In this document: positions 16,781 through 61,358 of the stretch, piece by piece
How positions within the stretch are numbered: the stretch's first letter is position 1
Layout of the letters: each line of letters starts with the position of its first letter
Source of the DNA: Actinomycetota bacterium
GTDB lineage: Bacteria > Actinomycetota > Actinomycetes > Mycobacteriales > JACQDL01
Length of the DNA: 64,000 bases
Direction: 5' to 3'
NCBI GenBank assembly: GCA_016201065.1
Contig: JACQDL010000027.1
Coordinates: forward strand, 68,641-132,640
Position numbers and translations under genes: made by a program
The notes under the pieces: model-generated
The model's input: only the letters and a program-made list of their open reading frames with translations
What the model was told of the DNA's origin: nothing
Databases searched by the model: none

Positions 16781-16800
16781 CCTCCGCCGCCTGTAGCCTC
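16769..16800. repeat. 16-bp tandem duplication (CGCCGCCTGTAGCCTC x2) spanning the GH57 stop codon
   Basis: Read directly. The first copy contains the functional TAG (16778-16780). The second copy repeats it out of use. Confidence 0.9.
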
Positions 16801-17599: not shown

Positions 17600-17652
17600 C
17601 TGTGGGCGCCGGGCTCCGCCGACGGTGACCGGCTCTGGCAGCATGGTGCGCC

Positions 17653-18915: not shown

Positions 18916-18972
18916 CCGGACGGCAGGGTCCCGCGGTCGCCGGATCCGGCCGGGCTGCGCGACACTGTTGCG

Positions 18973-23575: not shown

Positions 23576-23653
23576 CAGAGCATGGCCTCCTCGACTCCGC
23601 ACCGGCCCGGGCAGCCTAGCCTGCGCCCGCGCGGGCACGGGCCAGCCCGCGGG

Positions 23654-24463: not shown

Positions 24464-24556
24464 CCAACCGCACCGGTGCCGCCGATGGGTCACAGGGACC
24501 CGCGGCGATACGGTACGGCCGGACCACGCCCATGCGGGGTCCGACAGGGAGGGCGA

Positions 24557-41165: not shown

Positions 41166-42857
41166 TCAGAACCGCGCGGGCTCGTGGTAGTCGCCCCACT
41201 CGGCCCGCAGCGCACCGCAGATCTCACCGAGCGTGGCCTCGGCCCGCGCCGCCGCCAGCATCGCCGGGATCATGTTGTCCCCGGTGCGGGCCACCTGCCC
41301 CAGCCGGTCGACGACGTCCCGCGCCGCCGCGGCGTCCCGGTCGGACCGGCGGGCGGCGAGCATCCGGCGCTGCTCCACCTCGACCTCGTGGCTGACCCGG
41401 AGGATGTCCAGGTCCGGGGTGACCGACCCGGTGTGACAGTTCACCCCGACGATCCTCTTCTCGCCCTTCTCCAGCGCCTGCTGGTAGGCGAACGCCGCGT
41501 CGGCGATCTCCGCCATGAACCAGCCGTCCTCGATACCACGCAGGATGCCGGAGGTCATCGGGCCGATCGGATGGGTGGCGCGCTCGTCACCGAGCGCCCG
41601 GATCCGGGCGAAGATCCGCTCCGCCTCCTCCTCCATCCGGTCGGTGAGCGCCTCGACGTACCACGAGCCGCCGAGCGGGTCGGCGACGTTGGTCACCCCG
41701 GTCTCCTCCATGATCACCTGCTGGGTCCGCAGCGCGATCTCGGCGGCCGTCTCGGTGGGGAGCGCGAGGGTCTCGTCCAGGGCGTTGGTGTGCAGCGAGT
41801 TGGTGCCGCCCAGCACCGCCGCGAGCGCCTCGACGGCGGTGCGCACCACGTTGTTGTACGGCTGCTGGGCGGTGAGCGACACCCCGGCGGTCTGGGTGTG
41901 GAAGCGCAGCCACTGCGCCCGTTCGCTGGTGGCGCCGTAGGTGTCGCGCATCCAGCGGGCCCAGATCCGGCGGGCGGCCCGGAACTTCGCGATCTCCTCG
42001 AAGAAGTCGACGTGGCTGTCGAAGAAGAACGACAGGCCCGGCGCGAAGGTGTTGATGTCCAGCCCGCGGGAGAGGCCGAGCTCGACGTAGCCGAACCCGT
42101 CGGCGAGGGTGAAGGCGAGCTCCTGGGCGGCCGTCGAACCCGCCTCACGGATGTGGTACCCGGAGACGCTGAGCGGCTTGTACCGCGGGATCTCCCGGGC
42201 GCAGTACTCGATCAGGTCGCCGATGAGGCGCAGGTGCGGCTCGGGCGCGAACAGCCACTCCTTCTGCGCGATGTACTCCTTGAAGATGTCGGTCTGCAGG
42301 GTGCCGTCCAGCGCGTGGATGTCGGCACCCTGCCGCTCGGCCGCCACGAGGTACATGCAGAAGATCGGGACGGCCGGCCCGGAGATCGTCATCGAGGTGG
42401 TGACCCGTTCCAGCGGGATGCCGGCGAACAGCGCCTCCATGTCGGCCGCCGAGTCGATGGCCACGCCGCAGTGGCCGACCTCACCGAGGCTCTTCGGGTC
42501 GTCGGAGTCCCGCCCCATCAGGGTGGGCATGTCGAAGGCGACCGACAGCCCGCCACCGCCGGCGGCGAGGATCATCTTGTACCGCTCGTTGGTCTGCTCC
42601 GCGTTGCCGAAGCCGGCGAACTGCCGGATCGTCCAGCTCCGGCCCCGGTACCCGGTCGGGTAGAGCCCCCGGGTGAACGGGTACTCACCGGGCCAGCCGA
42701 TCCGCTCGAACCCGGCGACGGAGTCACCCGCGCGCGGACCGTAGACCGGCTCCACCGGCATTCCGGAGACGGTGCTGAAGTCGGCGTCGCGCACGCTCGC
42801 GGCGTCGTACCGGCGCAGCCAGCGATCCCGGCCCTCGGCGATCTCGGATGGGTCCAC
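41166..42857 (-). CDS. icmA: Acyl-CoA mutase large (catalytic) subunit, isobutyryl-CoA mutase IcmA-like
   Basis: 563 aa. TIRQFAGFG (Phe where methylmalonyl-CoA mutase has Tyr) and KEYIAQKEW (Gln where MCM has Arg), the ICM-type signatures as I recall them. No B12-binding domain. Confidence 0.8.
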
Positions 42858-42965
42858 GCTGGCTCCTCGGTCGGTGCGTTCGGCACACGGGGGATGGAAG
42901 AGATGGGTACCACGAAAATAGTAGGACGTCCTAGTAACCGCGCATAGTGGCGCCGCACCGGCCCG

Positions 42966-43490
42966 TCATCGGATGCGGACCGGCGCCTCCCGGAAGTCGC
43001 CTGCGGCGGCGCGGACCCGACGTAGCCCGCCGAAGATCTCGGCGCGGTCGGCTTCGGCGATGCCGGCCAGCCCGAACTCGATCGCCACCAGCGCCGCCGT
43101 TGCGGCCTCCACCACCTCACGGCCACGGTCGGTGAGCTCGGCCAGCACGCCGCGCCCGTCACGGGGGTTGCGTCGGCGTACCACCAGGCCGGCCGCCACC
43201 AGCCGGTCCACGGTGTTGGTCGCGCTGGTCGGGTGGACCATGAGCCGGCTGCCGATCACCTTCATCGGCAGCGCCCCGCGCCGGGAGAAGCGGAGCAGCA
43301 CCAGCGCCTCGTACCGGGCGAAGGTCAGCCCGTACGGCCGCAGCGCCTCATCGCAGCGCGCGAGCAGGAGCTGCTGGACCCGCATCACCGAGGTCGCGAC
43401 CCGCATGGCTGAGGCCGGCCCCCAGGTCGACTCCCAGATCTCGCCGGCCCGGTCGATCGGGTCGAACGGGAGATCGAGCGGGGTGGCCAT
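42966..43490 (-). CDS. MarR family transcriptional regulator
   Basis: LTFARYEALVLLRFS...MKVIGSRLMVHPTSATNTVDRLVAAGLVVRR winged-helix pattern. Confidence 0.8.
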   Translation of the reverse strand: MATPLDLPFDPIDRAGEIWESTWGPASAMRVATSVMRVQQLLLARCDEALRPYGLTFARYEALVLLRFSRRGALPMKVIGSRLMVHPTSATNTVDRLVAAGLVVRRRNPRDGRGVLAELTDRGREVVEAATAALVAIEFGLAGIAEADRAEIFGGLRRVRAAAGDFREAPVRIR

Positions 43491-43570
43491 GCCGGGACGC
43501 TACCGCTGCGGTGGCATTCCGGCATGGCCCGCGCAGATGCGCCTCTGGCGATTGGATACAATGTCCGATC

Positions 43571-44773: not shown

Positions 44774-45443
44774 CCGGCGGCCGTTCCGCCGGCCACCGAC
44801 CGCGCAGCAGGCGGTGCTCGCCGAGCTGCGGGCGATGATCAGCGCGGGCGAGCTCAAGCCCGGCGACCAGCTTCGACAGGAGCACCTCGCCGAACGGCTC
44901 GGGGTCAGCCGGCTGCCGGTCCGGGAGGCGCTGCGGGCGCTTGCCGCCGAGGGGCAGGCGTCGTACACCCCGCACCGCGGCTACTTCGTGGCCCAGCTCA
45001 GCGTCGCGGAGCTCACCGAGTGTTACCGGGTCCGCGAGCTGCTGGAGGAGGAGGCGGTCCGGCTGGCGGTGCCCCGGATGTCCGACGCCGACATCGCCGG
45101 GCTCGCGCAGGCGATCGACGAGATGGACCGTGCCGACGCCGCGGGCGACCTGGTCGCGGTGGCGGCAGCGAACCGCCGCTACCACTTCACTCTCTACCGG
45201 GGCGCCGGGATGGCCCGCCTGGTCGACCTCATCCGGATCATGTGGGACGCCACCGACGTCTACCGTTCCCGCTACTTCGCCGAGCCGGCACACCGCCGCG
45301 CACTCAACGACGAACATCGGGCGGTGCTCGCCGCCGTCCGCGACCGTGATCCCGACACCGCCGTGCGGCTGCTCGCCGAGCACCGCGCACACACCCTCGA
45401 CACCCTGACGACCCTGCTCGCCACCACGGAGGCCACCCCATGA
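44763..45443 (+). CDS. GntR family regulator with FCD domain
   Basis: ATG at 44763. LRQEHLAERLGVSRLPVREALRALAAEG HTH. The C-terminal FCD region includes DEHRAVLAAVRDRD. Confidence 0.85.
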   Translation: MAADRRPFRRPPTAQQAVLAELRAMISAGELKPGDQLRQEHLAERLGVSRLPVREALRALAAEGQASYTPHRGYFVAQLSVAELTECYRVRELLEEEAVRLAVPRMSDADIAGLAQAIDEMDRADAAGDLVAVAAANRRYHFTLYRGAGMARLVDLIRIMWDATDVYRSRYFAEPAHRRALNDEHRAVLAAVRDRDPDTAVRLLAEHRAHTLDTLTTLLATTEATP

Positions 45444-46594
45444 CCACCGACCTGCTGGCCCTCGACCCGGAGCTCACCGTGGAGGACCGGCTGATCCGGG
45501 ACACCGTACGGCGGTTCGCCGACGACCACCTCCGGCCGCACATCGCCGACTGGTTCGAGGCCGGCGTGCTGCCCCGGGATCTGGCCGGCGAGTTCGGCAA
45601 GCTCGGGCTGCTCGGGATGCACCTCACCGGGTACGGCTGCGCCGGGTCGACCGCCGTGCAGTACGGGCTGGTGTGCACTGAGCTGGAGGCGGTGGACTCC
45701 GGCATCCGCAGCCTGGTCTCGGTGCAGGGCTCGCTGGCCATGTACGCGATCTGGCGGTACGGCTCGGCCGAGCAGAAACAGCAGTGGCTGCCCAGGCTGG
45801 CCGGCGGCGACGCGATCGGCTGCTTCGGCCTCACCGAACCGGACTCCGGCTCCGACCCGGGCGGCATGCGCACCCACGCCCACCGGGACGGCCCGGACTG
45901 GGTGCTGGACGGCACCAAGATGTGGATCACCAATGGCGGCTGGGCCGACGTCGCGGTGGTGTGGGCCCGCACCGACGACGGCGTCCGCGGCTTCCTCGTC
46001 CCCCGGGACACCCCCGGCTTCACCACCCAGGAGGTGGGCCGCAAGCTGTCCCTGCGCGCCTCGGTCACCAGCGAGCTCACCTTCACCGGGTGCCGGCTGC
46101 CGGCCGATGCCCAGCTCCCCGGCGCCACGTCGCTCGGCGCCCCGCTGTCGTGCCTCACCGAGGCGCGCTTCGGCATCCTCTGGGGCGTGCTGGGGGCGGC
46201 TCGGGAGTGCTTCCAGACCGCGGTCGACTACGCCGGGACCAGGGTCCAGTTCGACCGGCCGATCAGCGCCTTCCAGCTCACCCAGGAGAAGCTGGTCGAC
46301 ATGGCCGTCGAGCTGAACAAGGGGCTGCTGCTCGCGCTGCACCTGGGCCGGCTCAAGGACGCCGGCGCGCTCACCCCGGCGCAGGTCAGCTTCGGCAAGC
46401 TGAACAACGTCCGGGAGGCGCTGACCATCGCCCGGCAGGCACGCACCATCCTCGGCGCGAACGGGATCACCCTGGACTACCCGGTGCTGCGGCACATGAA
46501 CAACCTGGAGTCGGTGCTGACCTACGAGGGCACCTCGGAGGTCCACACCCTCGTCCTGGGTGAGCAGATCACCGGGATACCCGCGTTCCGGTGA
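45440..46594 (+). CDS. gcdH: Acyl-CoA dehydrogenase, glutaryl-CoA dehydrogenase-like
   Basis: GCFGLTEPDSGSDPGGM, KMWITNG and the C-terminal TYEGTSEVHTLVLG. ATGA-type overlap with the GntR gene. Confidence 0.8.
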   Translation: MTTDLLALDPELTVEDRLIRDTVRRFADDHLRPHIADWFEAGVLPRDLAGEFGKLGLLGMHLTGYGCAGSTAVQYGLVCTELEAVDSGIRSLVSVQGSLAMYAIWRYGSAEQKQQWLPRLAGGDAIGCFGLTEPDSGSDPGGMRTHAHRDGPDWVLDGTKMWITNGGWADVAVVWARTDDGVRGFLVPRDTPGFTTQEVGRKLSLRASVTSELTFTGCRLPADAQLPGATSLGAPLSCLTEARFGILWGVLGAARECFQTAVDYAGTRVQFDRPISAFQLTQEKLVDMAVELNKGLLLALHLGRLKDAGALTPAQVSFGKLNNVREALTIARQARTILGANGITLDYPVLRHMNNLESVLTYEGTSEVHTLVLGEQITGIPAFR

Positions 46595-46621
46595 CCCCGC
46601 CGTTCCGGCAATGCGCGCGGG

Positions 46622-46918
46622 TCAGCCGGAGAGCCGGTGCTCGATCGCCTCGACCTTGCTGTGCAGGCCGTCGGTGACACCGTCCCGCCAGTCCACCTTG
46701 ATCACGACGCTGACCCGGGGAGCGTTCGCCTTCACCGCGTACACCGCGTCCCGGACCACCGCCATCACCTCGTCCCACTCCCCCTCGATGTTGGTGAACA
46801 TCGCGTTGGTCTCGCACGGCAGGCCGCTGGCCCGGACCACCCGGACCGCCTCGGCCACCGCATCCGCCATGCTCTCCGACCCGCTGCCGTCGGGAGCCAC
46901 ACTGAATGCCACGATCAT
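46622..46918 (-). CDS. MTH1187/YkoF-like thiamine-binding protein (DUF77)
   Basis: The 98-aa C-terminal part of ORF 46622..47671 ([52 protein letters not shown]...) is a typical DUF77 pattern. Confidence 0.7.
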
Positions 46919-46960
46919 CACGGCACCTCCTGCTACCGCCCCATCCTCTACCCTGCTGCG

Positions 46961-47719
46961 GTGGACTGGAGCCTGCGTACCTGCGCCCGCAAGGGGCACA
47001 TCACCTACAAGCCGACCGAGACCGACCTCGCCGACCACCTGCGAGCCACCACACCGCACGGCGAGGCGTGGCGGTGCCTGCGCTGCGGCGGGTACGTGCT
47101 GGGCACCCCGCACGGCAGCGGTCCCGCCGACCGGGCCCCGCTGGTCCTGCGCGGCCGCGCGCTGCGGGACCTGCTCGTACTCCGGCTGCTGGCCGTCGAG
47201 CGGGCCGGCCGGGGCCTGCTGATCCTGCTGCTGGCGTACGGCGTCCTGCGGTTCCGCTCCTCGCAGGCGACCCTGCGGCAGCTCTTCGAGCAGGACCTGC
47301 CCGCCGCCCGGCCGCTCGCCGACAAGCTCAACATCAACCTCGACGAGAGCGGGGTGGTGCACACCATCCGGACCGCGCTGGGGCTCCAGTCCCGGACCCT
47401 GGTCGTCGTCGCACTGGCCCTGGCGGCGTACGCGCTGCTCGGAATCGTGGAGGGTGCCGGACTCTGGTACGCCAAGCGCTGGGCCGAATACCTCGCGGTC
47501 GTCGCCACCAGCGCCTTCCTGCCGCTGGAGGTCTACGAGCTCATCGAGAAGGTCACCGTGCTCCGGGTCTCCGCGCTGGTCTTCAACATCGCGGCCGTGG
47601 TCTACCTGCTCCTCAGCAAGCGGTTGTTCGGGTTGCGCGGCGGCCACGCGGCCTTCGAGGCGGCCAGGCACTCCGAGTCGCTGCTGGAGGTCAGGGCCGT
47701 CGCCCGCACCCGCGGCTGA
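46961..47719 (+). CDS. DUF2127-like membrane protein with N-terminal zinc-ribbon-like CxxC
   Basis: GTG at 46961. [10 protein letters not shown] followed by 4 hydrophobic segments ([28 protein letters not shown] is characteristic of DUF2127). Confidence 0.6.
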
Positions 47720-47900
47720 CCGGCCGCCGCATCAGCGCGGCGCCGCAGCAGCCATACCGACAGCGCTCCACGTGTTCTCTACTCTTGCGCTTCATCACAC
47801 CTAGTGATCGAATGAATACGGTGCCGCTGCAGCGCGGGAAACGGCACGTCGATTCCCCGTACGGCGTCCGGGCGGCCCGCGCCGCAAGGAGGAGGCGCGC

Positions 47901-48629
47901 ATGGCGAGCCCATCCCGCCGGATCACCGACACGGGCGACTGCGGCTTGGCGACACGCGGATTCCTGGCCCACCTCGGTCCACATGCGCGGGAGACACTGC
48001 TTGGTGCCGGTCGGCCGCTCCGGTTTTCGGCCCATGAGACTCTTCTCCGCGAAGGCGAACAGTCGCAGCATGTACTACTGATCGTCAGCGGACGGGTCAA
48101 GATCGTTGCCACCGCACCGAACGGCTACGAAGCGGTGTTGGCAATCCGCGGGCCTGGCGATCTGATTGGCGAGCTGGCGTGCATCGACAACATGCCCCGA
48201 TCGGCAACAGTGGCGGCCTTGGGGCCGGTCCATACGCGGATCATGCCCCGCGTAATCTTCGACGACTTCCTCACCGACCACCCCGTGGCCGCCAAGGTGC
48301 TGGTCCGGATGGTGGCGTGGAAGCTGCGCTGCGCCAACCGCCGCCGCCTGGAGTTCAGCGCCTACCCGGTCCGGCTGCGGCTCGCGTTGGTGCTGCTCGA
48401 ACTTGAGGAATGGTACGGCCGAAGCGGCCACGCCGGCCGCGACCTTGACCTTGCGCTGTCCCAGACGGACCTTGCTGGCCTGGTGGGCGCGTCCATCGAC
48501 TCGGTCTCGAAGGCAATCCGTGCGTTGAGCCAGGCCAGGGTGATCGCCACCGGCCGGCGCCGCGTCACGATCCTGCGGCTCGACGAGCTTCGCGAGATCG
48601 CAGCGCCGATCGCGGCCAGGTGCCGCTGA
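47901..48629 (+). CDS. Crp/Fnr family regulator (cNMP-binding domain plus C-terminal HTH)
   Basis: AAGGAGGAGG RBS. Beta-roll region LLREGEQSQHVLLIVSGRVKI...RGPGDLIGELACIDNMPRSATVAAL. HTH LSQTDLAGLVGASIDSVSKAIRAL. Confidence 0.85.
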   Translation: MASPSRRITDTGDCGLATRGFLAHLGPHARETLLGAGRPLRFSAHETLLREGEQSQHVLLIVSGRVKIVATAPNGYEAVLAIRGPGDLIGELACIDNMPRSATVAALGPVHTRIMPRVIFDDFLTDHPVAAKVLVRMVAWKLRCANRRRLEFSAYPVRLRLALVLLELEEWYGRSGHAGRDLDLALSQTDLAGLVGASIDSVSKAIRALSQARVIATGRRRVTILRLDELREIAAPIAARCR

Positions 48630-48706
48630 ACCCGTACTTTTCCCTGTTCCTCCACGCGGGACACGCCGACGCTGAACCGACGACGCAACAACGACAACGA
48701 GGTGTC

Positions 48707-49474
48707 ATGAAACTGGATCCGGTTTACCGCTATCTCGTCGCTGTCGACATTGAGAGTTACGGCAAACGCGACAACCAAGGCCAATCCGAGCTACGAGCCG
48801 CCTTGCGTCAGGTCCTCGCCGATGCCTTTGACGCGATCGACGTCTCGGTCGATCCGGCCGAGCGCCAGGATCAAGGGGATGCCTTCCTCACGCTCGTGAA
48901 GCCGGAAGTGTCGAAGGTACGTCTCGTCGACGACCTTGTCCGCGAGATCGAAAACGGCCTACGCCGGTCCAACCACTACCGCACCGCTGAGGGAAAGATG
49001 CGCGTCAGGCTCGCGCTCAATGCCGGCGACGTGCACCTGGACGGCACCGGCTTCCCCGGTGAGGCAGTCGTGGCCACCGGGCGCCTCATCGACTCGGTCC
49101 AGCTCAAGGAGTCGTTGGCACGGGCACCCAAGGACCTCGCCGTGATCGTTTCCGATGGGCTGTACCACGACGTGGTCGTCCACCGCTACCAGGCGATCGA
49201 TCCAGCGGAATATCGGCGTGTGGATGTCGCGGTAAAGGAGTTCCGGCAACCGGCCTGGATCCGGATCCCAGGCCACCCGGCGGCGGAGATCGTTACCGAA
49301 GCTGCGTCCGCGACCGCGTCCCCAGCAGCCCAGCGGCCGGTCACCGAGCGGGACGCGGCGTCGCCGGCCGGCACGGCCTCCGCACTGCCCGGATCGATCA
49401 ACCACAGCACGTTCACCGGGCCGACCAGCTTCGGCGGACCGGCCGCCGGGCGCGACGTCAACTACCACCGGTAG
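48707..49474 (+). CDS. Class III nucleotidyl-cyclase-like protein with low-complexity C-terminal tail
   Basis: ATG at 48707. Motif order YLVAVDIESYG / QGDAFLTLV / RVRLALNAGDVHLDG / GEAVVATGRLIDS follows the cyclase catalytic core. The tail ends FGGPAAGRDVNYHR. Confidence 0.55.
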   Translation: MKLDPVYRYLVAVDIESYGKRDNQGQSELRAALRQVLADAFDAIDVSVDPAERQDQGDAFLTLVKPEVSKVRLVDDLVREIENGLRRSNHYRTAEGKMRVRLALNAGDVHLDGTGFPGEAVVATGRLIDSVQLKESLARAPKDLAVIVSDGLYHDVVVHRYQAIDPAEYRRVDVAVKEFRQPAWIRIPGHPAAEIVTEAASATASPAAQRPVTERDAASPAGTASALPGSINHSTFTGPTSFGGPAAGRDVNYHR

Positions 49475-49717
49475 GTCGCCACGATGACCCTGCCAACGAG
49501 CACACCCGACCACGCCCAACGCACCGACTAGTCCGGCAAGCACCCCGGCACTGGCGCCGACCCGGCGTCGGGCACACGAGCGGCGACCGAAGACGCGCCG
49601 AAGGACGGGGCCACCGCCGACGGCAGCGCCGACGACCCCGATGCCGACGACGGGCGGCCAGAGGAGGAACTGCCCCGGGAGGAATGGAGCGCGGTCCGGG
49701 CTATCCGCCGGGCCGGT

Positions 49718-51688
49718 TTGGACAGCTGGGCCCCGACCTACTCGTTCGGCGGGCCGACCAGTCTTGGTGGCCCGTCCGCCGGCAGGGACGTCAACATTTA
49801 CCCCGGGCTCCTGCGGGCCGCGCCAGTGGTAGGGCTGGTGCCGCCCGACGAGCTGGACGAGTTGCGCGAGGTCCACGTCCCCGGACCTGGCTACGACAAG
49901 GCGTGCGGCACACTTCGCGACCGGCATGTCCTGATCTTGTGCGGAGACGAGTTAAGCGGACGCCGGGCGACGGCTCTCCGCCTGCTCACCCACCTTGCCG
50001 GCAAGGCCGTCTATGGCCTGCGCCCTACCGATGGTCTGGACACGGTCTGCCGCGACCACCGCCCAGACCGCGGCTACCTCCTGGATTCGCGGCCAGGCGT
50101 CAGCGCTGCGACGCTCGACCAGGTCCAGCTGTCAGCGCTGGAGGACACACTGCGGCAGGTCGGTTCCTTCCTGGTGGTCACGATCCCGGCGCACGCCGCC
50201 CGCGACTTGCCGGACCTCGACCGCTACCTCGTCGAGCACGGCCACCCGAACCCGCACAAAGTGCTGGACCGCCACCTCAGGTGCGGCTCCAGCACCCACG
50301 CGAACCTACTCAAAGGATGGCTGGCGGACCCCAGGCTCGGCGAACGCGTCGACCGCATGGTCCGACCGCAGGATGCAGTCGCGCTGGCGCTGCAGCTCAT
50401 GAAGGAGGCCGAGGCTGGGACGAGCCTGGACGACGTCCTCAAAGGGCTCGGCAGCAGCGCCACCCGGAGTGAGGCGCAGGCCTTGCTGTCCACCACGACC
50501 TACGGCGAACACGACCTGACCCGACTCCAGCAGCTGTACTGGCGTGCCTTCGTTGTCGCCCTTGCGGTCTTCAACGACACGCCGTACCTGCCTGTCGTGG
50601 CAGCGGCCCAAGACCTCGCCGAACACCTCGGCCGGACCGAGTACCCCCGCTGGGGGCCACCTGGCAAGGCGGCGATCTTCTCGTTGAAACGCGACGACTG
50701 GTTGACCGCACTCGGCGGAGAGCTCGTGTCGCGGGACCGGGAGGGCGCTTCGGACGAGCAGCGGGTGGAGCACGTGCGCATGCGCAACCGCGATCTCCCC
50801 GCCGCTCTGCTAGACGAGCTATGGACGGCGTACGACGGCGCCCGGACGCCGTTGCTGAACTGGTTGAAAGGTCTGATCCAACCGACGCAGCCGCCCGAAA
50901 TACAGGTCCGAGCTGCGCAGTCCGTGGGCTGGCTCGCGGTACACGACTTCGACTCCATCTGCCGGAGGATCATCAGGCAATGGGCGGGGTCACGCCTGCC
51001 GAGCCAACATATGGCCGCCGCGTGGGCGCTGGAGTTCGCGGCGACCTCCGGCGGGTTGGCACCACGGGTGCGAGTCCTCCTGGCCGAGTGGTGCCGTAGC
51101 GCCAACCTGGCGCACCAGGCGACCGCCGTGCTCGCCTACGGCACCACCATCGGGGTGAGGGATCCAGCGGAGGCTCTCCGCAACCTGCGCTCCCCGGCAC
51201 GGTCCGGCAACGCAACCATGACCGCCGTCGTGTCGCGCAGCGTGATCGACCTATTCACCGGCGGCGCAGAGCACGAGGTACTGAATGCACTCCAAGAATG
51301 GGACGCCGACAACGATGACCGGATACGCGTCGCTGCGGCGGGAGCGCTGGTTGAGCTCGCGTACGAGGCGGACGAAACGGGCACTCCAGCGTTGCTGAAG
51401 CTCTTCGCTGGCGCCGACCCGGCGGCCAAGTCGCTTACCGAATTGTGGCGAGCGGCGCTTCAGAACCAGCTGGTGAGAGCGGATGCCTGGGAGGCCCTCC
51501 GCAAGTGGTTCGTGTGGGCTGACAAGGATCCAACGCTCCAGGTCCCGCTGGCGCACCTGCTCACCGCCATCGAGAGAGTCGACCCCACCCTGCGGACGCG
51601 CGTTGCCTGGTACTTGCGCTTCTGGCAGCACCACCCAAAGGAGCCGTCAGCGACGGCCGAGAAGATCCGCTCCGCATGGGAGGAGTAG
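49718..51688 (+). CDS. Large NTPase-like (degenerate Walker A) plus helical-repeat protein; true start unresolved
   Basis: HVLILCGDELSGRRATALRLL sits where a P-loop would be. GYLLDS is Walker-B-like. The C-terminal ~350 aa is HEAT/ARM-like helical. TTG 49718 is the first canonical start, but coding-like sequence continues upstream in frame. Confidence 0.5.
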   Translation: MDSWAPTYSFGGPTSLGGPSAGRDVNIYPGLLRAAPVVGLVPPDELDELREVHVPGPGYDKACGTLRDRHVLILCGDELSGRRATALRLLTHLAGKAVYGLRPTDGLDTVCRDHRPDRGYLLDSRPGVSAATLDQVQLSALEDTLRQVGSFLVVTIPAHAARDLPDLDRYLVEHGHPNPHKVLDRHLRCGSSTHANLLKGWLADPRLGERVDRMVRPQDAVALALQLMKEAEAGTSLDDVLKGLGSSATRSEAQALLSTTTYGEHDLTRLQQLYWRAFVVALAVFNDTPYLPVVAAAQDLAEHLGRTEYPRWGPPGKAAIFSLKRDDWLTALGGELVSRDREGASDEQRVEHVRMRNRDLPAALLDELWTAYDGARTPLLNWLKGLIQPTQPPEIQVRAAQSVGWLAVHDFDSICRRIIRQWAGSRLPSQHMAAAWALEFAATSGGLAPRVRVLLAEWCRSANLAHQATAVLAYGTTIGVRDPAEALRNLRSPARSGNATMTAVVSRSVIDLFTGGAEHEVLNALQEWDADNDDRIRVAAAGALVELAYEADETGTPALLKLFAGADPAAKSLTELWRAALQNQLVRADAWEALRKWFVWADKDPTLQVPLAHLLTAIERVDPTLRTRVAWYLRFWQHHPKEPSATAEKIRSAWEE

Positions 51689-51690
51689 GC

Positions 51691-52533
51691 ATGTCCGACG
51701 ACAAGGTGCGCGAAGCTAGCCAGCCGCGTCGGTTCACACTGTTGCGGACCTGGCTGATCGACTGGACGCGAGAGATCAGGAGACGACGCCGCACTGAGAT
51801 CCGGATGCCGAAGCACGACACCTACTCCGAGCTGCGCACATCCCAGATCTCCGCCCCCAGCAGCGACGATCGCTTCACCTTCCAGGTCACGGTGACGTGC
51901 CTCTGGTCCGGCCCCGGCGAAGCCGCCACGGTCGCCGAGGCGATCCGGCTGCACGAGCCCGAACAGCGCAGAGTGCTCACGCAAGACCTGCGGCGCATCT
52001 CCCGCACCATCGAGCCGGACGAGTTCGCCGTGGTGGAACAGCAGTTGAACGAGTCACTTGAGGAGCCGACGCGCTACCACGACGGGCTGCTCGCCTGTCA
52101 CACCTGGGTCGAGGTAGCGCCCGAGGATACGTTGCGCAAGCACCTGCAACAACAGTGGATCACGAAATCCAATACCGACGCCGCCCATGCGTTGAAGAAG
52201 AACGCGGTGGGCCAGCTCGACGAGCTGACCAAGGAATGGGACAAGTTCCTACGTAACGTCAGGGAGGGCTCGATCTCCCCGCGTGCGGTGAAGCTTGCCG
52301 GGAACACGAACCGGGTCGGGGACGTTGCCGAACAGATGCTCAAGGACCAGGAGGAAACTCAGGCGAAGCTCCGAGAGATCTGCGCCAATGCGGTAAGCGC
52401 GCACGAGCGGCTAGACCTGTACGAGTTCGTGACGTCCTACGACTCGGCATTGCGCCAACTACTCGACTACCTGCAACTCGACCGGGCGGCGACCGACGGC
52501 ACCATCCGTCAGGACGCTCACCGCGCGAGGTGA
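51691..52533 (+). CDS. Hypothetical protein (280 aa), no family recognised
   Basis: ATG at 51691 preceded by GGGAGGAG, 2 nt after the upstream stop. Basic N-terminus, then a helical/coiled C-terminal half. Confidence 0.55.
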   Translation: MSDDKVREASQPRRFTLLRTWLIDWTREIRRRRRTEIRMPKHDTYSELRTSQISAPSSDDRFTFQVTVTCLWSGPGEAATVAEAIRLHEPEQRRVLTQDLRRISRTIEPDEFAVVEQQLNESLEEPTRYHDGLLACHTWVEVAPEDTLRKHLQQQWITKSNTDAAHALKKNAVGQLDELTKEWDKFLRNVREGSISPRAVKLAGNTNRVGDVAEQMLKDQEETQAKLREICANAVSAHERLDLYEFVTSYDSALRQLLDYLQLDRAATDGTIRQDAHRAR

Positions 52534-53039
52534 GCGGCGACCTGCCAGACGGCGACCGCCAGCGCGCTGACACCGGTCCACGCGAGTGCGCGGGAGAAGT
52601 GCCGGTACCGGGCCACAGCAATCACTGAGAGTACGTGCACCTGCCGCCATGCCTGTTCCAACAGAGCGCTCGCCGCGTCGTCTCCAAGACTGGCCGGATT
52701 CATCCCTGCGACGGAGGGAAACGCGAAGTGGTTCGGGTCTGGACCGCCACTGAGACGGGGACGCATGGCTGCGCCGAGATGCCGGGCGATTGCGAGCGAC
52801 GAAACGGCAAACGCGGCCAGGGCGACGAGCGCCACCCTGGCCAGCGCGGAGCGGACCGGCCACACGTCCGAGAAGCCCTGTGTCACCACGAAGAGCGCAA
52901 GTGCAACGTCACCGGCGGCAAGCGTCGCGATCTTGGTGTCGACGTTGGTCACCCAACCGGCGAAGGCATCGACGGTCTGCAACGCCACGGCAATCTGTTG
53001 CGCCGGGCTGAGCCTATCCTCAAGATCATCTTCTTGCAT
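52518..53039 (-). CDS. Small multi-pass membrane protein, Pycsar TM-effector-like (DUF5706-like)
   Basis: ATG at 53039 with GGAGAGG 8 nt upstream (alternative GTG 53048). NVDTKIATLAAG..., 3-4 hydrophobic helices, RPRLSGGPDPNHFAF and VLSVIAVARYRHFSRAL match my memory of this family. Confidence 0.5.
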   Translation of the reverse strand: MQEDDLEDRLSPAQQIAVALQTVDAFAGWVTNVDTKIATLAAGDVALALFVVTQGFSDVWPVRSALARVALVALAAFAVSSLAIARHLGAAMRPRLSGGPDPNHFAFPSVAGMNPASLGDDAASALLEQAWRQVHVLSVIAVARYRHFSRALAWTGVSALAVAVWQVAAHLAR

Positions 53040-53479
53040 CAGCGTCACCTCTCCGGTCGGGTTCCTTGGTCCTCGCGCCAGTAAACGAACTCGGGACCTC
53101 CGCGAGAAGGGAGAAATACGGTCTCAACCAGATCGAGCCGACAGCCGCGGCGGGCGACCGCACCTATGTGATGATCGTCAGGCGGGCGGGACAGCCCGAG
53201 CGGCCCCATTCACGATCAGTAGGGGAATCGAAGCCTAAGTCGGAGCTGGGTCGCGGGGTGGCACCGGGCGGTCCGGCGGCTCGCCTCCCCAGGGTGGCAC
53301 CGCTCCTCAGCAACAGACCCAGGGCCCATCACATCCCTGACTGGCCGTAGCACGTCCGTAGGGCGCACTGGCGGGTGGGCGTTGGAGGGCCCATCATCGC
53401 GCGAAGCCTTGGCCCGCGTGGCTGCGGAGATTCACCTGGAGTATTGCCCAGCTCGTCCGCGGTGCACCGGGACGACTTC

Positions 53480-57415: not shown

Positions 57416-58411
57416 ATGACCGTGCCGTTGGACCTCCCCGACTCGGCCCGCCGGGCCAAGCCGGAGGCGGGCCTGGCCGGCATGGGCGGGACGATCCAGG
57501 GACGGTCCCTCGGGCAGATCGCGTGGCTCCGGCTGAGACGGGACCGGGTCGCGCTGGCCGGCGGCCTGGTCATCCTCGTTCTGGTGCTGGTGGCGATCTT
57601 CGCCCCGCTCGTCGTCAGGCTGCTCGGGCACCCGCCGACGGAGTTTCACGAGGACCTGATCGACCCGTCGTTGCAGGTCGCGAGGGGCCCGCGGGGCGGG
57701 ATCAGCTGGGACTTCCTGTTCGGCCTGGAACCGGTGAACGGCCGGGACCTGTTCAGCCGGGTCGTCTACGGCGCCCGGATCTCGCTGCTGATCGCCTTCC
57801 TGGCCACCCTGCTCTCGATGGCGATCGGTACCACGATGGGCATCGTCGCCGGCTACTTCGGCGGCTGGATCGACACGGTGATCAGCCGCCTGATGGATCT
57901 CTTCCTCGCGTTCCCGCTGCTGCTGTTCGCGATCGCGCTGGTCGGGGTCATCCCGGACCACGGGTTCGGGCTCAGCGGCAACACACTGCGGGTCGCCATG
58001 CTCGTGGTGATCATCGGCTTCTTCGGCTGGCCCTACATCGGCCGGATCATCCGCGGCCAGACGCTGTCGCTGCGCGAACGGGAGTTCGTCGACGCCGCCC
58101 GCAGCCTCGGCGCCCGGTCGCCGTACATCATCGTCCGCGAGCTGCTGCCGAACCTGGTCGCACCCATCCTCGTGTACACCACGTTGCTGATCCCGACGAA
58201 CGTCCTGTTCGAGGCGGCCCTGTCCTTCCTCGGCGTCGGGGTCCAGCCACCGACGCCGACCTGGGGCGGCATGCTCTCCGAGGCCTCGCGGCTGTACACC
58301 ATCGCGCCGAACTTCATGATCTTCCCGGGCTTGGCGATCTTCGTGACGGTGCTCGCGTTCAACCTGCTCGGGGATGGGCTGCGCGACGCGCTCGACCCGC
58401 GCGCGCGATGA
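57416..58411 (+). CDS. Peptide/nickel ABC importer permease (DppC/OppC-like)
   Basis: ATG at 57416. EAA-type loop [27 protein letters not shown]. Confidence 0.85.
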
Positions 58412-58463
58412 GCACGATGGCCAGTTTGCCACCAGTACGTCTATGAATAGGGGTGAACCAGCA

Positions 58464-60233: not shown

Positions 60234-60344
60234 TCATGGCGCCTGGGGTGCCTCCCGGCACCCCAGGCACACCACACATCGAGGGCAGGTGATGGCGACC
60301 GGTGGCCGGCGGGGAGTCTGCGCCGGCCACCGCAGCCGGGCAGC

Positions 60345-61358
60345 GTGATCGTTTTCATCATCAGACGCCTGGTCGGCGCGGTGCTGCTGCTGTTCGTGGT
60401 CAGCGCGGTCACCTTCTCGATCTTCTTCGTGGTGCCCCGGCTGGCCGGGGCGACCGCGGAGGACCTCGCCTCCCGGTATGTCGGCAAGACCGCCGACGAA
60501 CAGCAGGTCCGGCAGATGGCGGACAAGCTCGGCTTCCACGACCCGCTCGTGGTGCAGTACGGGCGGTTCGCCAAGGGCATCGTGGCCGGCGCCGACTACG
60601 ACTACGGCCCGGCCGCCGAGCACTGCCCCGCGCCGTGCTTCGGCTACTCCTTCCTCACCCAGGCCCCGGTCTGGCCGGACCTGCTCGACCGGCTGCCGGT
60701 GACCGCGTCGCTGGCGGCCGGGGCGTCGGCGATCTGGCTGCTGGCCGGAGTCGCCACCGGCGTGATCTCGGCACTGCGGCGCGGCAGTATCTTCGACCGG
60801 GCGGCGATGGGGGTGGCGCTCGCCGGCGTCTCGTTACCGATCTTCTTCACCGGCCTGCTGGCGCTCGGGATCTTCAGCTACACCCTCGGCGTGACCGCGC
60901 CGGGCAGCAGCTACACCGCGCTCGCGGAGGACCCCGCGCAGTGGGCCTACGACCTGATCCTGCCCTGGATCACCATCGCCTTCCTGTACGCCGCCGGCTA
61001 CGCCCGGCTCACCAGCTCCGGCATGCTGGAGACGATGAGCGAGGACTTCATCCGCACCGCGCGCGCCAAGGGGCTGCCAGAGCGCACCGTGGTGCTCAAG
61101 CACGGGCTGCGGGCCACCCTGACCCCGATCGTCACGATCTTCGGTCTTGACGTGGGGTTGCTGCTCGGCGGCGCCATCCTCACCGAGAGCACGTTCTCGC
61201 TGAACGGGATCGGCCGGTACGCGATCCTCGCGATCGGCGCCAACGATCTCCCCAAGGTCATGGGCGTGACCATGGTGGCGGCGTTCTTCATCGTTCTCGC
61301 CAACCTGGTGGTGGACATCCTGTACGCGGTGGTGGACCCCAGGGTCCGGCTGACATGA
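60345..61358 (+). CDS. Peptide ABC importer permease (DppB/OppB-like)
   Basis: (M)IVFIIRRLVGAVLLLFVVSAVTFSIFF is a typical DppB N-terminus. EAA loop EDFIRTARAKGLPERTVVLKHGLR. Confidence 0.88.
   Translation: MIVFIIRRLVGAVLLLFVVSAVTFSIFFVVPRLAGATAEDLASRYVGKTADEQQVRQMADKLGFHDPLVVQYGRFAKGIVAGADYDYGPAAEHCPAPCFGYSFLTQAPVWPDLLDRLPVTASLAAGASAIWLLAGVATGVISALRRGSIFDRAAMGVALAGVSLPIFFTGLLALGIFSYTLGVTAPGSSYTALAEDPAQWAYDLILPWITIAFLYAAGYARLTSSGMLETMSEDFIRTARAKGLPERTVVLKHGLRATLTPIVTIFGLDVGLLLGGAILTESTFSLNGIGRYAILAIGANDLPKVMGVTMVAAFFIVLANLVVDILYAVVDPRVRLT

What the first reader, a model, noticed from the sequence alone, without database searches (positions are those of the whole stretch)
49411..49800. Cyclase-like and NTPase-like genes are in the same frame, separated only by two TAG stops, with coding-like sequence and a duplicated peptide motif across the gap
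The cyclase-like ORF (frame of 48707) ends at TAG 49472-49474, and a second in-frame TAG lies at 49529-49531. From 49532 to the first canonical start (TTG 49718), the same frame reads SGKHPGTGADPASGTRAATEDAPKDGATADGSADDPDADDGRPEEELPREEWSAVRAIRRAGL. Third-codon positions here are overwhelmingly G/C, and there is no ATG, GTG or TTG. The 18 codons between the two stops also look coding.

The motif F-G-G-P-x-x-G-R-D-V-N occurs just before the first stop (TSFGGPAAGRDVNYH). It recurs just after the TTG (YSFGGPTSLGGPSAGRDVNIY).

This suggests one of four things: an ancestral single cyclase-linker-NTPase polypeptide that has been split; a recent pseudogenisation; stop-codon readthrough; or a sequencing error. 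Which one is true decides whether the system is intact.
Basis: seen in the sequence. Interest (0 to 1): 0.62.

Follow-up and report, generated by a model that had tools for sequence, protein, structure and literature searches.

The report
Broken start of a cyclase-coupled NTPase
The two genes were never one: the first TAG is the cyclase gene's normal stop, the second is a real nonsense mutation 15 codons into the neighbouring STAND NTPase gene, and the repeated peptide is a conserved, co-evolving tag that probably couples the two proteins.

Summary

In 16 related loci the cyclase-like gene and the NTPase gene are always separate. The NTPase start lies within -8 to +9 nt of the cyclase stop. 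Two Actinomadura/Spirillospora loci share the window's junction type: TAG, 9 nt, ATG, same frame.

TAG 49472 is therefore the ordinary cyclase stop and ATG 49484 is the ancestral NTPase start. TAG 49529 is a nonsense codon at codon 16, inside the acidic low-complexity N-terminal extension that all relatives have. No relative has a stop there. Five metagenome runs, representing two haplotypes, assemble the same TAG, so it is not a sequencing error.

The shared motif is present in both partners of every locus and co-varies between them (P/P, Y/Y, H/H, and matching insertions). It is kept despite many synonymous differences and lies in predicted disordered tails. One relative is a natural cyclase-NTPase fusion that lacks the motif. 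This matches the effector-C-terminus / NLR-N-terminus amyloid signalling layout.

The cassette is Crp-like sensor, class III cyclase fold, nSTAND3-like NTPase, an unknown protein and a PycTM-like protein. Whether the truncated NTPase is still made, from TTG 49718 or later, is unresolved.

The parts
47901..48629 (+). Crp-like regulator (cNMP_binding + HTH_Crp_2, 242 aa), first gene of the conserved cassette
   Evidence: Pfam gives cNMP_binding E 3.9e-21 and HTH_Crp_2 E 7e-14. It lies upstream of the cyclase-like gene in every related locus that extends far enough upstream.
48707..49474 (+). Cyclase-like gene (255 aa): class III nucleotidyl cyclase fold (residues 1-200) plus a disordered tail
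   Evidence: The AF2 model has mean pLDDT 82. Residues 1-200 are mostly above 90 and the tail 201-255 is below 50. The Foldseek top 50 PDB hits are all class III adenylyl/guanylyl cyclases, for example Cya2 2w01 at E 1e-8. There is no Pfam hit. 73 stand-alone homologues of 229-285 aa were found.
49412..49462 (+). Effector-side copy of the shared motif, FTGPTSFGGPAAGRDVN
   Evidence: It is conserved at the C-terminus of the cyclase family. It matches the NTPase-side copy.
49472..49474 (+). TAG 1: the ordinary stop codon of the cyclase-like gene
   Evidence: All homologues end 3-15 residues after the motif. L006, L008 and L012 also use TAG there.
49484..49531 (+). Ancestral NTPase start (ATG 49484) plus 15 codons (MTLPTSTPDHAQRTD), ended by the premature TAG 2 at 49529-49531
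   Evidence: The junction 'TAG gtc gcc acg ATG' has the same layout as L006 'TAG gcg gcc gcg ATG' and L008 'TAG gtg gcc gcg ATG'. In 17 of 17 loci the NTPase start lies -8 to +9 nt from the cyclase stop. The N-terminus MTLPTSTP resembles L012 MTSPTSES and L001 MSTPASQ. No other locus has a stop in this extension. The same sequence is found in 5 runs.
49532..49717 (+). Remainder of the NTPase N-terminal extension, now cut off from its start: an acidic low-complexity linker followed by a conserved helix (about 49676-49729, EEWSAVRAIRRAGLDSW)
   Evidence: It aligns with the N-terminal extensions of P0004, P0005 and P0080. GC3 is 0.84. In the AF2 model, residues 1-45 are disordered and helix 49-66 has pLDDT of about 83. 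Most of the 150 listed family representatives carry 50-150 residues before the conserved core.
49718..51688 (+). STAND-type NTPase ORF as it can now be read from the first canonical start (TTG 49718, 656 aa): motif, P-loop domain (GDELSGRR), helical domains and HEAT/ARM repeats
   Evidence: The window protein matches Pfam nSTAND3 only weakly (E 0.027). 11 of 19 family members match nSTAND3 and 7 match HEAT_2. Foldseek hits include SAMD9, Avs5, Avs4 and NLRC4/NAIP5, plus PP2A-A and importin repeats. TTG 49718 is the conserved Leu of AGLDS, which is CTG or CTC in the seven relatives that have Leu there. The public annotation starts at GTG 49838 (616 aa, P0230).
49739..49795 (+). NTPase-side copy of the shared motif, YSFGGPTSLGGPSAGRDVN
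   Evidence: 13 of 15 core residues are identical to the effector-side copy, and 5 of those 13 use different codons. The segment is disordered in the AF2 model (residues 68-97, pLDDT about 25).
51676..52533 (+). Conserved protein of unknown family (about 280-285 aa), overlapping or abutting the NTPase stop
   Evidence: It is present downstream of the NTPase in related loci. It has no family hit. It shows weak similarity to the C-terminal extension of NTPase relative P0104 (E 7e-4).
52518..53048 (-). PycTM-like membrane protein (173-176 aa), convergent with the operon
   Evidence: Pfam PycTM scores E 3e-8, 34.4 bits against a cut-off of 27.2. It sits in the same position in L001-L004 and in Carbonactinospora L027/L028. 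tblastn did not detect it in the Actinomadura/Spirillospora loci.

Best explanation
**Shown: gene anatomy.** The region holds two separate, translationally coupled genes of a conserved cassette. The cassette reads Crp-like cNMP sensor, class III cyclase-fold effector, nSTAND3-like STAND NTPase with HEAT repeats, a protein of unknown family and, in this clade, a convergent PycTM-like membrane protein.
- TAG 49472 is the cyclase gene's normal stop.
- ATG 49484, 9 nt later, is the ancestral NTPase start.
- TAG 49529 is a genuine, lineage-specific nonsense mutation at codon 16 of the NTPase gene. It lies in the acidic low-complexity N-terminal extension that precedes the motif.
- The shared reading frame is coincidence. 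Two relatives have the same same-frame junction, and the other 14 overlap out of frame.

**Inferred: role of the motif.** The repeated F-G-G-x-A-A-G-R-D-V-N peptide is a matched pair, one copy on the effector's C-terminal tail and one near the NTPase's N-terminus. The pair physically couples sensor and effector, most likely by homotypic beta-type (amyloid-like) templating as in effector/NLR pairs with BASS motifs. When the NTPase senses its trigger and oligomerises, its clustered motifs would recruit and cluster the cyclase tails. Class III cyclases need to dimerise, so this would assemble them into active form and raise a cNMP. The Crp-like regulator would read that signal and the PycTM-like protein would execute the response.

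**Unresolved: consequence of TAG 49529.** Either the NTPase is no longer made and the system is uncoupled (about 50%), or a shortened NTPase is made from TTG 49718, which keeps the motif, or from a later start such as GTG 49838, which loses it (about 35-40%).
For: **Junction.**
- 16 related loci were examined: Logan and JGI metagenome contigs, Carbonactinospora thermoautotrophica, four Actinomadura and two Spirillospora genomes.
- All show two genes, with an ATG/GTG start -8 to +9 nt from the cyclase stop.
- L006 and L008 have the same TAG-9 nt-ATG same-frame junction.
- The N-terminal extension is homologous and typical of the family.
- Only the window has an in-frame stop there.

**The TAG is real.**
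- Four runs assemble identical sequence at 9-18x.
- A fifth run, with a linked SNP at 51541, has the same TAGs.
- TAG is an ordinary stop here, ending 8 of 39 ORFs.

**Protein identities.**
- The cyclase fold is supported.
- The STAND/HEAT assignment is supported.

**Motif.**
- It is present in both partners in all loci.
- The variable position co-varies: win P/P, L001 P/P, L029 P/P, L003 Y/Y, L004 Y/Y, L012 Y/Y, L013-15 H/H, L027 H/H.
- Matching insertions occur in both partners (L025 GHA[VI]GGNVS[KR]AGRD; L009-11 G[AP]GDAF against L006/8 GGDAF).
- Own-partner alignment scores average 88 against 50 for non-partners (permutation p about 5e-5). Within the GRD clade the figures are 87 against 69.
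- Identical residues are often encoded by different codons (9 of 11 in L001, 5 of 13 in the window). This points to selection on the peptide rather than recent duplication.
- Both copies lie in predicted disordered segments.
- P0196 is a natural cyclase-NTPase fusion (E 3e-18) in which the motif is degenerate.

**Literature.**
- Effector/NLR pairs share C-terminal/N-terminal amyloid motifs. 42% of such gene pairs overlap, and one example with a guanylate cyclase effector is reported (10.1101/2020.01.06.895854).
- Amyloid signalling has been shown experimentally in an E. coli antiphage pair (10.1101/2024.11.07.622273).
Against: - No relative close enough was found to show which sense codon preceded TAG 49529. 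The closest NTPase is about 45% identical.
- Only assembled contigs were available, not raw reads, so a minority allele without the stop cannot be excluded.
- Apart from the TAG, the ORF and the whole cassette are intact. This fits either a very recent lesion or a tolerated one.
- No convincing Shine-Dalgarno sequence precedes TTG 49718 (read from the sequence), so the re-start is conjecture.
- The amyloid mechanism is untested. The motif contains Pro, lacks Gln, and sits 60-190 residues from the NTPase N-terminus, whereas the quoted example (Agp residues 2-25) is at the extreme end. It could not be compared with the published BASS profiles.
- Co-variation would also arise if both copies bind the same third partner.
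- The window's Walker A reads GDELSGRR (Arg for Lys), so NTPase activity itself is uncertain.
- Cyclase activity and product are unknown.
Confidence: 0.72

Rival explanations
1. The shared motif is not a homotypic or amyloid-like coupling element. It is a common docking or processing site, and both proteins present it to a third component such as the conserved ~285-aa protein, a protease or a chaperone. The gene anatomy would be the same as in the best explanation.
For: - Co-variation of the two copies is equally expected if both track one binding partner.
- The ~285-aa protein is conserved in the cassette.
- A weakly similar segment is fused to the C-terminus of NTPase relative P0104 (E 7e-4).
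- The motif contains Pro and a conserved Arg-Asp pair, which is less typical of published BASS composition.
Against: - The placement (effector C-terminus, NLR-like N-terminus, overlapping collinear genes) is exactly that of amyloid signalling pairs.
- The fused relative P0196 has lost the motif. This fits a role in joining the two proteins rather than in docking to a third.
- Some cyclase tails carry pseudo-repeats of the motif (P0058, P0065, L025), as described for amyloid motifs.
Confidence: 0.2
2. The locus descends from a single cyclase-linker-NTPase polypeptide that was split, or is still expressed as one by readthrough of both TAGs.
For: - The frame is the same and GC3 is continuous across the gap.
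- A fused cyclase-NTPase protein exists in the wider family (P0196, 948 aa).
Against: - 16 of 16 related loci have separate genes, and 14 of them are in different frames with 4- or 8-nt overlaps.
- All 73 cyclase homologues are stand-alone proteins that end just after the motif.
- No relative has a stop at the position of the second TAG, so nothing suggests programmed readthrough.
- TAG is a normal stop in this window.
- No suppressor tRNA was seen in the window.
- A motif pair on one polypeptide would be redundant, and the fused relative has lost it.
Confidence: 0.04
3. TAG 49529 is a sequencing or assembly error, and the NTPase gene is intact from ATG 49484.
For: - It is a single-base lesion in a GC-rich low-complexity stretch.
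- The rest of the gene and the cassette are intact.
- Two other contigs (L014, L004) show frame breaks in the same kind of linker, and these could be assembly errors.
Against: - Four runs from different samples assemble the identical sequence at 9-18x with no variant.
- A fifth run that differs by a SNP at 51541 carries the same TAG.
- Substitution errors are rare in Illumina consensus sequence.
Confidence: 0.03
4. The N-terminal extension is dispensable or autoinhibitory, and the TAG allele is a selected functional variant. The 15-codon ORF from ATG 49484 would act as a coupling leader, and the NTPase would be made from TTG 49718 with the motif at its very N-terminus, as in classical BASS NLRs.
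For: - The NTPase ORF downstream is fully intact (656 codons), as are all other cassette genes.
- The allele is found in two haplotypes.
- The conserved Leu codon is TTG here but CTG/CTC in the seven relatives with Leu. That synonymous change creates a canonical start. The chance of it occurring is about 0.15, given that 25 of 169 Leu codons in the cassette are TTG.
- Starting there would place the motif 8 residues from the N-terminus.
Against: - No Shine-Dalgarno sequence precedes TTG 49718, and it lies 186 nt from the stop, which is too far for ordinary re-initiation.
- The helix just upstream (IRRAG) is conserved in relatives and would be lost.
- The extension is a family-wide feature.
- The public annotation chose GTG 49838, which lacks the motif.
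Confidence: 0.3

Closest known systems
Effector/NLR gene pairs with bacterial amyloid signalling sequences (BASS; Dyrka et al. 2020, 10.1101/2020.01.06.895854; Bab/Agp BASS11 antiphage pair, 10.1101/2024.11.07.622273)
   Same: - A short motif is shared between the C-terminus of an effector and the N-terminal region of an adjacent STAND/NLR-like NTPase.
- The genes are collinear and overlap or nearly abut.
- Similarity within a pair is higher than between pairs.
- Pseudo-repeats occur on the effector side in some members.
- 'All-in-one' fused relatives exist.
- The host organisms are filamentous actinobacteria.
- A guanylate cyclase effector with a BASS motif is mentioned in that paper.
   Different: - The NTPase is nSTAND3-like with HEAT repeats, not NACHT/NB-ARC with TPR/WD.
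- The cyclase domain is too divergent for Pfam to detect.
- The motif lies behind a 60-190-residue acidic extension and a helix rather than at the extreme N-terminus.
- Its sequence (FGGxAAGRDVN, or GDAFxGDKVxGxK in Actinomadura) could not be matched to BASS1-11.
- Amyloid formation is untested.
- The pair is embedded in a larger cassette with a Crp-like sensor.
[quoted passage not shown]
   Same: - A class III-fold cyclase sits next to a protein that matches the Pfam PycTM family.
- A cyclic-nucleotide-binding domain is present in the locus.
   Different: - The PycTM-like protein has no fused cNMP-binding domain, which sits instead on a separate Crp-type transcription factor.
- It is convergent with the operon and is absent from the Actinomadura/Spirillospora versions.
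- A STAND NTPase and an unknown protein are added.
- There is no PADLOC hit for the cyclase-like, NTPase or ~285-aa proteins (the Crp-like and PycTM-like proteins were not scanned against PADLOC).
- The cyclase product is unknown.
Avs/AVAST-type STAND antiphage NTPases (Avs4, Avs5) and cNMP-cyclase effectors in NTP-dependent conflict systems of multicellular prokaryotes (Kaur et al. 2020, PMC7159879)
   Same: - The architecture is P-loop STAND core plus helical domains plus a C-terminal repeat sensor.
- The best structural matches include Avs5, Avs4 and SAMD9.
- cNMP cyclases and CRP-like regulators are noted as components of such systems.
   Different: - The effector is a separate protein joined by a peptide motif rather than an N-terminal fused domain.
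- The Walker A lysine is replaced by arginine in this subclade.

Membership tests
Effector/NLR pair with amyloid signalling motif (BASS-type) | [quoted passage not shown] | tested here: met
   In the window, 13 of 15 core residues are identical. The motif is present in both partners in the 16 loci scored.
Effector/NLR pair with amyloid signalling motif (BASS-type) | Adjacent collinear genes with a very short distance or an overlap | tested here: met
   Spacing is -8 to +9 nt in 17 of 17 loci. The paper reports 57% of pairs within 10 bp and 42% overlapping.
Effector/NLR pair with amyloid signalling motif (BASS-type) | Motif more similar within a pair than between pairs | tested here: met
   Own-partner score is 88 against 50 for non-partners, p about 5e-5. 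Within the GRD clade it is 87 against 69. Identity is maintained despite synonymous differences.
Effector/NLR pair with amyloid signalling motif (BASS-type) | NLR architecture as used in the defining screen (NACHT or NB-ARC with TPR/WD repeats) | tested here: not met
   There is no NACHT or NB-ARC hit. The family matches nSTAND3 and HEAT_2. It is still a STAND NTPase by fold.
Effector/NLR pair with amyloid signalling motif (BASS-type) | Motif matches a described BASS family profile (BASS1-11) | not testable with these tools
   The profiles and logos are figures or supplements that are not held. No Pfam amyloid-motif family was hit.
Effector/NLR pair with amyloid signalling motif (BASS-type) | Motif forms amyloid and the NLR-side copy templates the effector-side copy | not testable with these tools
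   Only indirect evidence is available. Both copies lie in segments predicted as disordered in the monomers, and the motif is Gly/Asn-containing with alternating hydrophobic residues.
Class III nucleotidyl cyclase | Cyclase homology domain fold | tested here: met
   The Foldseek top 50 hits are all class III cyclases, with E down to 1e-8 and TM (target) 0.6-0.78. The profile gives weak hits to Ma1120 and to the ANP-receptor cyclase.
Class III nucleotidyl cyclase | Sequence membership (Pfam Guanylate_cyc above threshold) | tested here: not met
   There is no Pfam, NCBIfam or PADLOC hit.
Class III nucleotidyl cyclase | Two metal-binding Asp residues and the transition-state Asn/Arg | tested here: inconclusive
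   D14 (VDIE) and D58 (QGD) are invariant in 28 sequences, and R126 is invariant. The Asn position was not mapped structurally. Activity is untested.
STAND NTPase, nSTAND3 (PF20720) | Pfam model above the gathering score | tested here: not met
   The window protein scores 14.6 bits against a cut-off of 27.2 (E 0.027). 11 of 19 relatives match at E <= 0.01, the best at 1.8e-6.
STAND NTPase, nSTAND3 (PF20720) | P-loop NTPase core followed by helical domains and a repeat sensor | tested here: met
   The AF2 model (pLDDT 80) shows a strand-helix P-loop region at about residues 130-235, then helical domains and HEAT-like repeats. Foldseek hits include SAMD9, Avs5, Avs4, NLRC4/NAIP5 and PP2A-A.
STAND NTPase, nSTAND3 (PF20720) | Canonical Walker A GxxxxGK[ST] | tested here: not met
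   The window reads GDELSGRRAT. Its subclade has GSGRR, while more distant relatives have GSGK.
Pycsar | Effector carrying a cNMP-binding domain fused to TM or TIR, encoded with the cyclase | tested here: not met
   The PycTM Pfam hit is above threshold, but the 176-aa protein has no cNMP-binding domain and is convergent. The cNMP-binding domain is on the Crp-like protein. PADLOC found nothing for the three proteins scanned, which did not include the PycTM-like or Crp-like proteins.
Programmed stop-codon readthrough / recoding | Stop codon conserved at the same position in orthologues, with the coding signal continuing | tested here: not met
   None of the 16 related loci has a stop in the N-terminal extension.

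The most novel reading that the evidence does not exclude
The cassette is an undescribed, sensor-equipped relative of Pycsar-type cyclic-nucleotide defence. A STAND NTPase would detect an invader and switch on a divergent class III cyclase in trans, by prion-like templating of a short co-evolving motif. The resulting cNMP would be read by a dedicated Crp-type regulator and executed by a PycTM-like membrane protein. In this MAG, a nonsense mutation in the NTPase's acidic N-terminal extension would either have uncoupled the system or have created a shortened, re-tuned sensor.
Probability: 0.3. Interest if true: 0.75.

Novelty: new variant of a known kind. Interest (0 to 1): 0.45.

Why it matters
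For this genome, the finding settles how to annotate the locus. It holds two genes, with one nonsense lesion in the NTPase. It is not a fusion, a readthrough or an error. The public gene call for the NTPase (616 aa, from GTG 49838) omits the coupling motif.

More generally, the locus belongs to a conserved cassette in Streptosporangiales-type actinobacteria. In that cassette an NLR-like NTPase and a nucleotide cyclase share a co-evolving peptide tag. If the tag works by amyloid-like templating, it would extend amyloid signalling from pore-forming effectors to second-messenger synthesis. It would also show one way a defence cyclase can be given a dedicated sensor. How Pycsar-type cyclases are switched on upon infection is, to my knowledge, not settled. 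The natural variants of the tag (P, Y, H, and insertion types) offer ready-made specificity tests.

Tried and rejected
- **Family scans.** Pfam, NCBIfam and PADLOC scans of the cyclase-like, NTPase and ~285-aa proteins gave no significant family. The only hit was a weak nSTAND3/HEAT match.
- **First homologue search.** The first NTPase homologue search returned only 5 hits, because low-complexity words saturated the candidate list. The profile search of representatives recovered the family, with 1983 hits.
- **Genome tools unavailable.** The genome search and the fetch from genomes were shut. I could therefore not search the MAG for suppressor tRNAs or paralogues, nor sample close relatives.
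- **No closer relative.** Nothing closer than about 45% (NTPase) or 62% (cyclase) identity exists in the collections searched. The ancestral codon at 49529 could not be inferred.
- **RNA runs.** None were found.
- **DNA runs.** They are held only as contigs, so minor alleles are invisible.
- **Metagenome scan.** The scan with the 28-sequence alignment failed because no stretch was conserved enough. It was repeated with 18 closer sequences.
- **Other scans.** The promoter/terminator scan of 47600-53300 found nothing. The window contains no tRNA.
- **Alternative starts rejected as unconvincing.** CTG 49670 has its GGAGG only 2 nt upstream. ATC 49703 has no SD. The strong GGGAGGA at 49677-49683 has no start codon at a usable distance.
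- **TAG reassignment rejected.** TAG ends 8 of 39 ORFs, and the cyclase ends at TAG exactly where its relatives end.

Full report
**1. The observation**

The sequence is as described. The frame that starts at ATG 48707 ends at TAG 49472-49474. A second in-frame TAG lies at 49529-49531. From 49532 the same frame stays open to 51688.

There is no in-frame ATG, GTG or TTG between 49532 and TTG 49718. GC3 is 0.83-0.84 across the gap, as high as in the flanking genes. Both motif copies read as quoted.

Two corrections are needed:
- The 18 codons between the stops contain an in-frame ATG at 49484.
- The in-frame CTG is at 49670, not 49667.

Being in the same frame is not unusual in this 71% GC window. 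At least six other neighbouring ORF pairs are contiguous in one frame across a single stop. TAG ends 8 of 39 high-GC3 ORFs.

**2. What relatives show**

Homologues of the NTPase and of the cyclase-like protein led to 16 related loci:
- metagenome contigs L001-L004, L012-L015, L025 and L029;
- Carbonactinospora thermoautotrophica (L027);
- four Actinomadura and two Spirillospora genomes (L006-L011).

All have the same order: Crp-like regulator, cyclase-like gene, NTPase. Where the contig reaches far enough, a ~280-aa gene follows. The window's clade and Carbonactinospora also have a convergent PycTM-like gene.

In every locus the cyclase-like gene and the NTPase gene are separate. The NTPase ATG/GTG lies between -8 and +9 nt of the cyclase stop. 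The junction types are:
- 14 loci overlap out of frame, of ATGA type or by 8 nt;
- one has a 1-nt gap;
- L006 (A. madurae) and L008 have 'TAG gcg gcc gcg ATG' and 'TAG gtg gcc gcg ATG', that is, a TAG stop, a 9-nt spacer and the same frame.

The last layout is exactly that of the window, 'TAG gtc gcc acg ATG' at 49472-49486.

The window's MTLPTSTPDH also resembles the N-termini MTSPTSESST (L012), MSTPASQVPT (L001) and MSTTTTSESQ (L003).

All relatives then have an acidic, low-complexity stretch. It is followed by a short conserved helix (IRSxRAAGLDSL in the closest relatives, AIRRAGLDSW in the window; more divergent in L027, L029 and the Actinomadura/Spirillospora loci) and then by the motif. 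In the profile search, most of the 150 listed representatives carry 50-150 residues before the conserved core.

Three conclusions follow:
- TAG 49472 is the cyclase's normal stop.
- ATG 49484 is the ancestral NTPase start.
- 49532-49717 is the NTPase's own N-terminal extension, and TAG 49529 interrupts it at codon 16.

No other locus has a stop there. L014 has a frame break in the same extension, which may be an assembly error.

**3. Is the TAG real?**

The window comes from a groundwater metagenome. Four runs from different samples of one study each assemble 49200-50000 identically, at 9-18x word depth.

A fifth run's contig (L005) differs from the window by one SNP in 3626 nt (51541 G>T, Q608H). 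It carries both TAGs. A sequencing or assembly error is therefore very unlikely.

Only contigs, not reads, were available, so a minor intact allele cannot be excluded. No RNA run holds the stretch.

**4. What the proteins are**

*Cyclase-like protein.* It has no Pfam, NCBIfam or PADLOC hit. A 28-sequence alignment gives a confident AF2 model: residues 1-200 have pLDDT mostly above 90, while the 55-residue tail is below 50. The best 50 PDB matches are all class III adenylyl/guanylyl cyclases. The profile also weakly hits Ma1120 and the ANP-receptor cyclase. The two metal-binding Asp positions (VDIE, QGD) are invariant.

*NTPase.* On its own it is only weakly nSTAND3 (E 0.027). However, 11 of 19 family members match nSTAND3 and 7 match HEAT_2. 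Its model (pLDDT 80) has four parts:
- a disordered N-terminus;
- one confident helix;
- a disordered motif segment;
- a P-loop domain, helical domains and HEAT-like repeats.

The best structural matches are SAMD9, Avs5, Avs4 and NLRC4/NAIP5, plus PP2A-A and importin repeats. Its Walker A reads GDELSGRR. The close subclade has GSGRR, while more distant relatives have GSGK.

*Other genes.* The upstream gene is a Crp-type cNMP-binding regulator. The convergent downstream gene matches Pfam PycTM above threshold but has no cNMP-binding domain.

**5. The duplicated motif**

The motif is not a local curiosity. All cyclase homologues of the closer clade end with F-x-G-P-T-S-F-G-G-[PYH]-A-A-G-R-D-[VI]-N plus 3-15 residues. 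Their NTPase partners carry the same motif after the helix.

The variable position is the same in both partners of every locus:

| Variant | Loci |
|---|---|
| P/P | window, L001, L029 |
| Y/Y | L003, L004, L012 |
| H/H | L013-L015, L027 |

Other variants also match between partners:
- L025 has a longer version, GHA[VI]GGNVS[KR]AGRD[IV]N, in both.
- The Actinomadura/Spirillospora clade has a different motif in both partners: YGGDAF[SG]GDKV with HGGDAFGGDKV in L006/L008, and YGAGDAFTGDKV with YGPGDAF[TG]GD[KN]V in L007 and L009-L011. A one-residue insertion is shared by both copies.

Smith-Waterman scores of each cyclase tail against its own NTPase head average 88, against 50 for other loci's heads (permutation p about 5e-5). 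Within the GRD clade the figures are 87 against 69, at the same p.

If two paralogous copies evolved independently, own and foreign partners should be equally distant. The excess therefore indicates co-evolution.

It is not recent duplication or gene conversion, because identical residues are often encoded by different codons. This holds for 9 of 11 residues in L001, 6 of 16 in L029 and 5 of 13 in the window.

P0196 (948 aa) is a natural fusion of a homologous cyclase domain (E 3e-18) to the NTPase. There the motif is degenerate.

In the wider NTPase family the segment before the P-loop carries other Gly/Asn/Val-rich motifs. By a simple pattern search, the GRD type occurs in 15 of 149 representatives.

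**6. Mechanism**

The layout is that of effector/NLR pairs using amyloid signalling motifs:
- effector C-terminus paired with NLR-like N-terminus;
- overlapping collinear genes;
- within-pair similarity;
- pseudo-repeats on some effector tails;
- fused 'all-in-one' relatives;
- filamentous actinobacteria as hosts.

Dyrka et al. (10.1101/2020.01.06.895854) also report one BASS pair with a guanylate cyclase effector. Amyloid signalling has since been shown to drive an E. coli antiphage pair (10.1101/2024.11.07.622273).

I therefore infer the following sequence:
1. The NTPase oligomerises on sensing a trigger through its HEAT repeats.
2. It uses its motif to recruit and cluster the cyclase tails.
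3. This brings the cyclase domains, which in class III enzymes act as dimers (established knowledge), into an active assembly.
4. The cNMP is read by the Crp-like regulator.
5. The PycTM-like protein is a candidate executioner.

Step 1 is suggested by the protein fold. Step 2 is supported by the co-variation evidence. Steps 3 to 5 are inference.

A rival is that both motif copies dock to a third protein such as the ~285-aa protein. A weakly similar segment is fused to the C-terminus of NTPase relative P0104 (E 7e-4).

**7. Consequence of TAG 49529**

Translation from ATG 49484 ends after 15 residues. Downstream in-frame options are poor:
- CTG 49670 has its GGAGG only 2 nt upstream.
- ATC 49703 and TTG 49718 have no Shine-Dalgarno sequence.
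- The public annotation starts at GTG 49838 (616 aa), which would remove the motif.

TTG 49718 encodes the conserved Leu of AGLDS. That Leu is CTG or CTC in the seven relatives that have Leu there. This could be a compensatory start-creating change, but TTG makes up 15% of Leu codons in the cassette, so the hint is weak.

Everything else in the cassette is full length. My estimates are:

| Outcome | Probability |
|---|---|
| NTPase lost or strongly reduced (young pseudogene, system uncoupled) | about 50% |
| Shortened NTPase still made | about 35-40% |
| Readthrough | about 5% |
| Error | about 3% |

**8. Novelty**

The gene-boundary puzzle itself is ordinary: a normal stop plus one nonsense mutation.

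The conserved cassette and its co-evolving tag are a new variant of a known kind, namely amyloid-type effector/NLR coupling. Its distinguishing features are:
- a Pfam-invisible cyclase;
- an nSTAND3/HEAT NTPase;
- a motif behind an acidic extension;
- a Crp-type reader.

PADLOC has no model for it. I did not find it described in the papers I searched, but that search was not exhaustive.

Noticed in passing
P0196 (948 aa, from the representative search): This is a natural 'all-in-one' fusion. An N-terminal domain homologous to the window's cyclase-like protein (BLASTP E 3e-18) is joined directly to the NTPase. The shared motif is degenerate in the linker.
   Followed up: partly
L014:1410-1720 and L004:2062-2232: Two related metagenome contigs also have frame breaks in low-complexity linkers of this gene pair. 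L014 is broken in the NTPase N-terminal extension and L004 between the cyclase domain and its motif. These may be real lesions or assembly errors.
   Followed up: no
window 49838 (GTG): The public annotation of this contig calls the NTPase as 616 aa starting at GTG 49838 (P0230). That start omits the coupling motif. Logan gene calls start at TTG 49718 (656 aa).
   Followed up: partly
window 49718-49720: The first canonical start, TTG, is the conserved Leu codon of AGLDS. That codon is CTG or CTC in the seven relatives with Leu there. It may be a start-creating synonymous change that followed the nonsense mutation. The chance of it is about 0.15, given that 25 of 169 Leu codons in the cassette are TTG.
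   Followed up: partly
window 49943-49972: Walker A reads GDELSGRRAT. The closest subclade has GSGRR (Arg for the P-loop Lys), while more distant family members have GSGK[RHQY]. The window alone also lacks the second Gly (GxEGSG becomes GDELSG).
   Followed up: partly
window 51541: There is a G/T polymorphism between runs (Q608H in the NTPase). At least two haplotypes of this population therefore carry the TAG allele.
   Followed up: yes
P0104 (887 aa), residues ~770-850: An NTPase relative has a C-terminal extension weakly similar (E 7e-4) to the N-terminal half of the cassette's ~285-aa protein. This hints that the protein works with the NTPase.
   Followed up: no
NTPase family representatives P0090-P0102: The segment before the P-loop is hypervariable across the family. 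It carries other Gly/Asn/Val-rich motifs, for example GDNSVVAGVINIS and AVNLGDGGIAADKVYIGD. The GRD type occurs in only 15 of 149 representatives. Different effector partners are likely.
   Followed up: partly
window 52518-53048 (-): The PycTM-like protein has no cNMP-binding domain. The only such domain in the cassette is on the Crp-like regulator. tblastn with the window's PycTM-like protein found no match in the Actinomadura/Spirillospora loci.
   Followed up: partly
window 14981-17599, 17629-19947, 22796-24715, 41166-43499, 45350-47719, 58347-61358: Six other neighbouring ORF pairs are contiguous in one frame across a single stop codon. This shows how common 'same frame, only a stop between' is in this high-GC window.
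   Followed up: no
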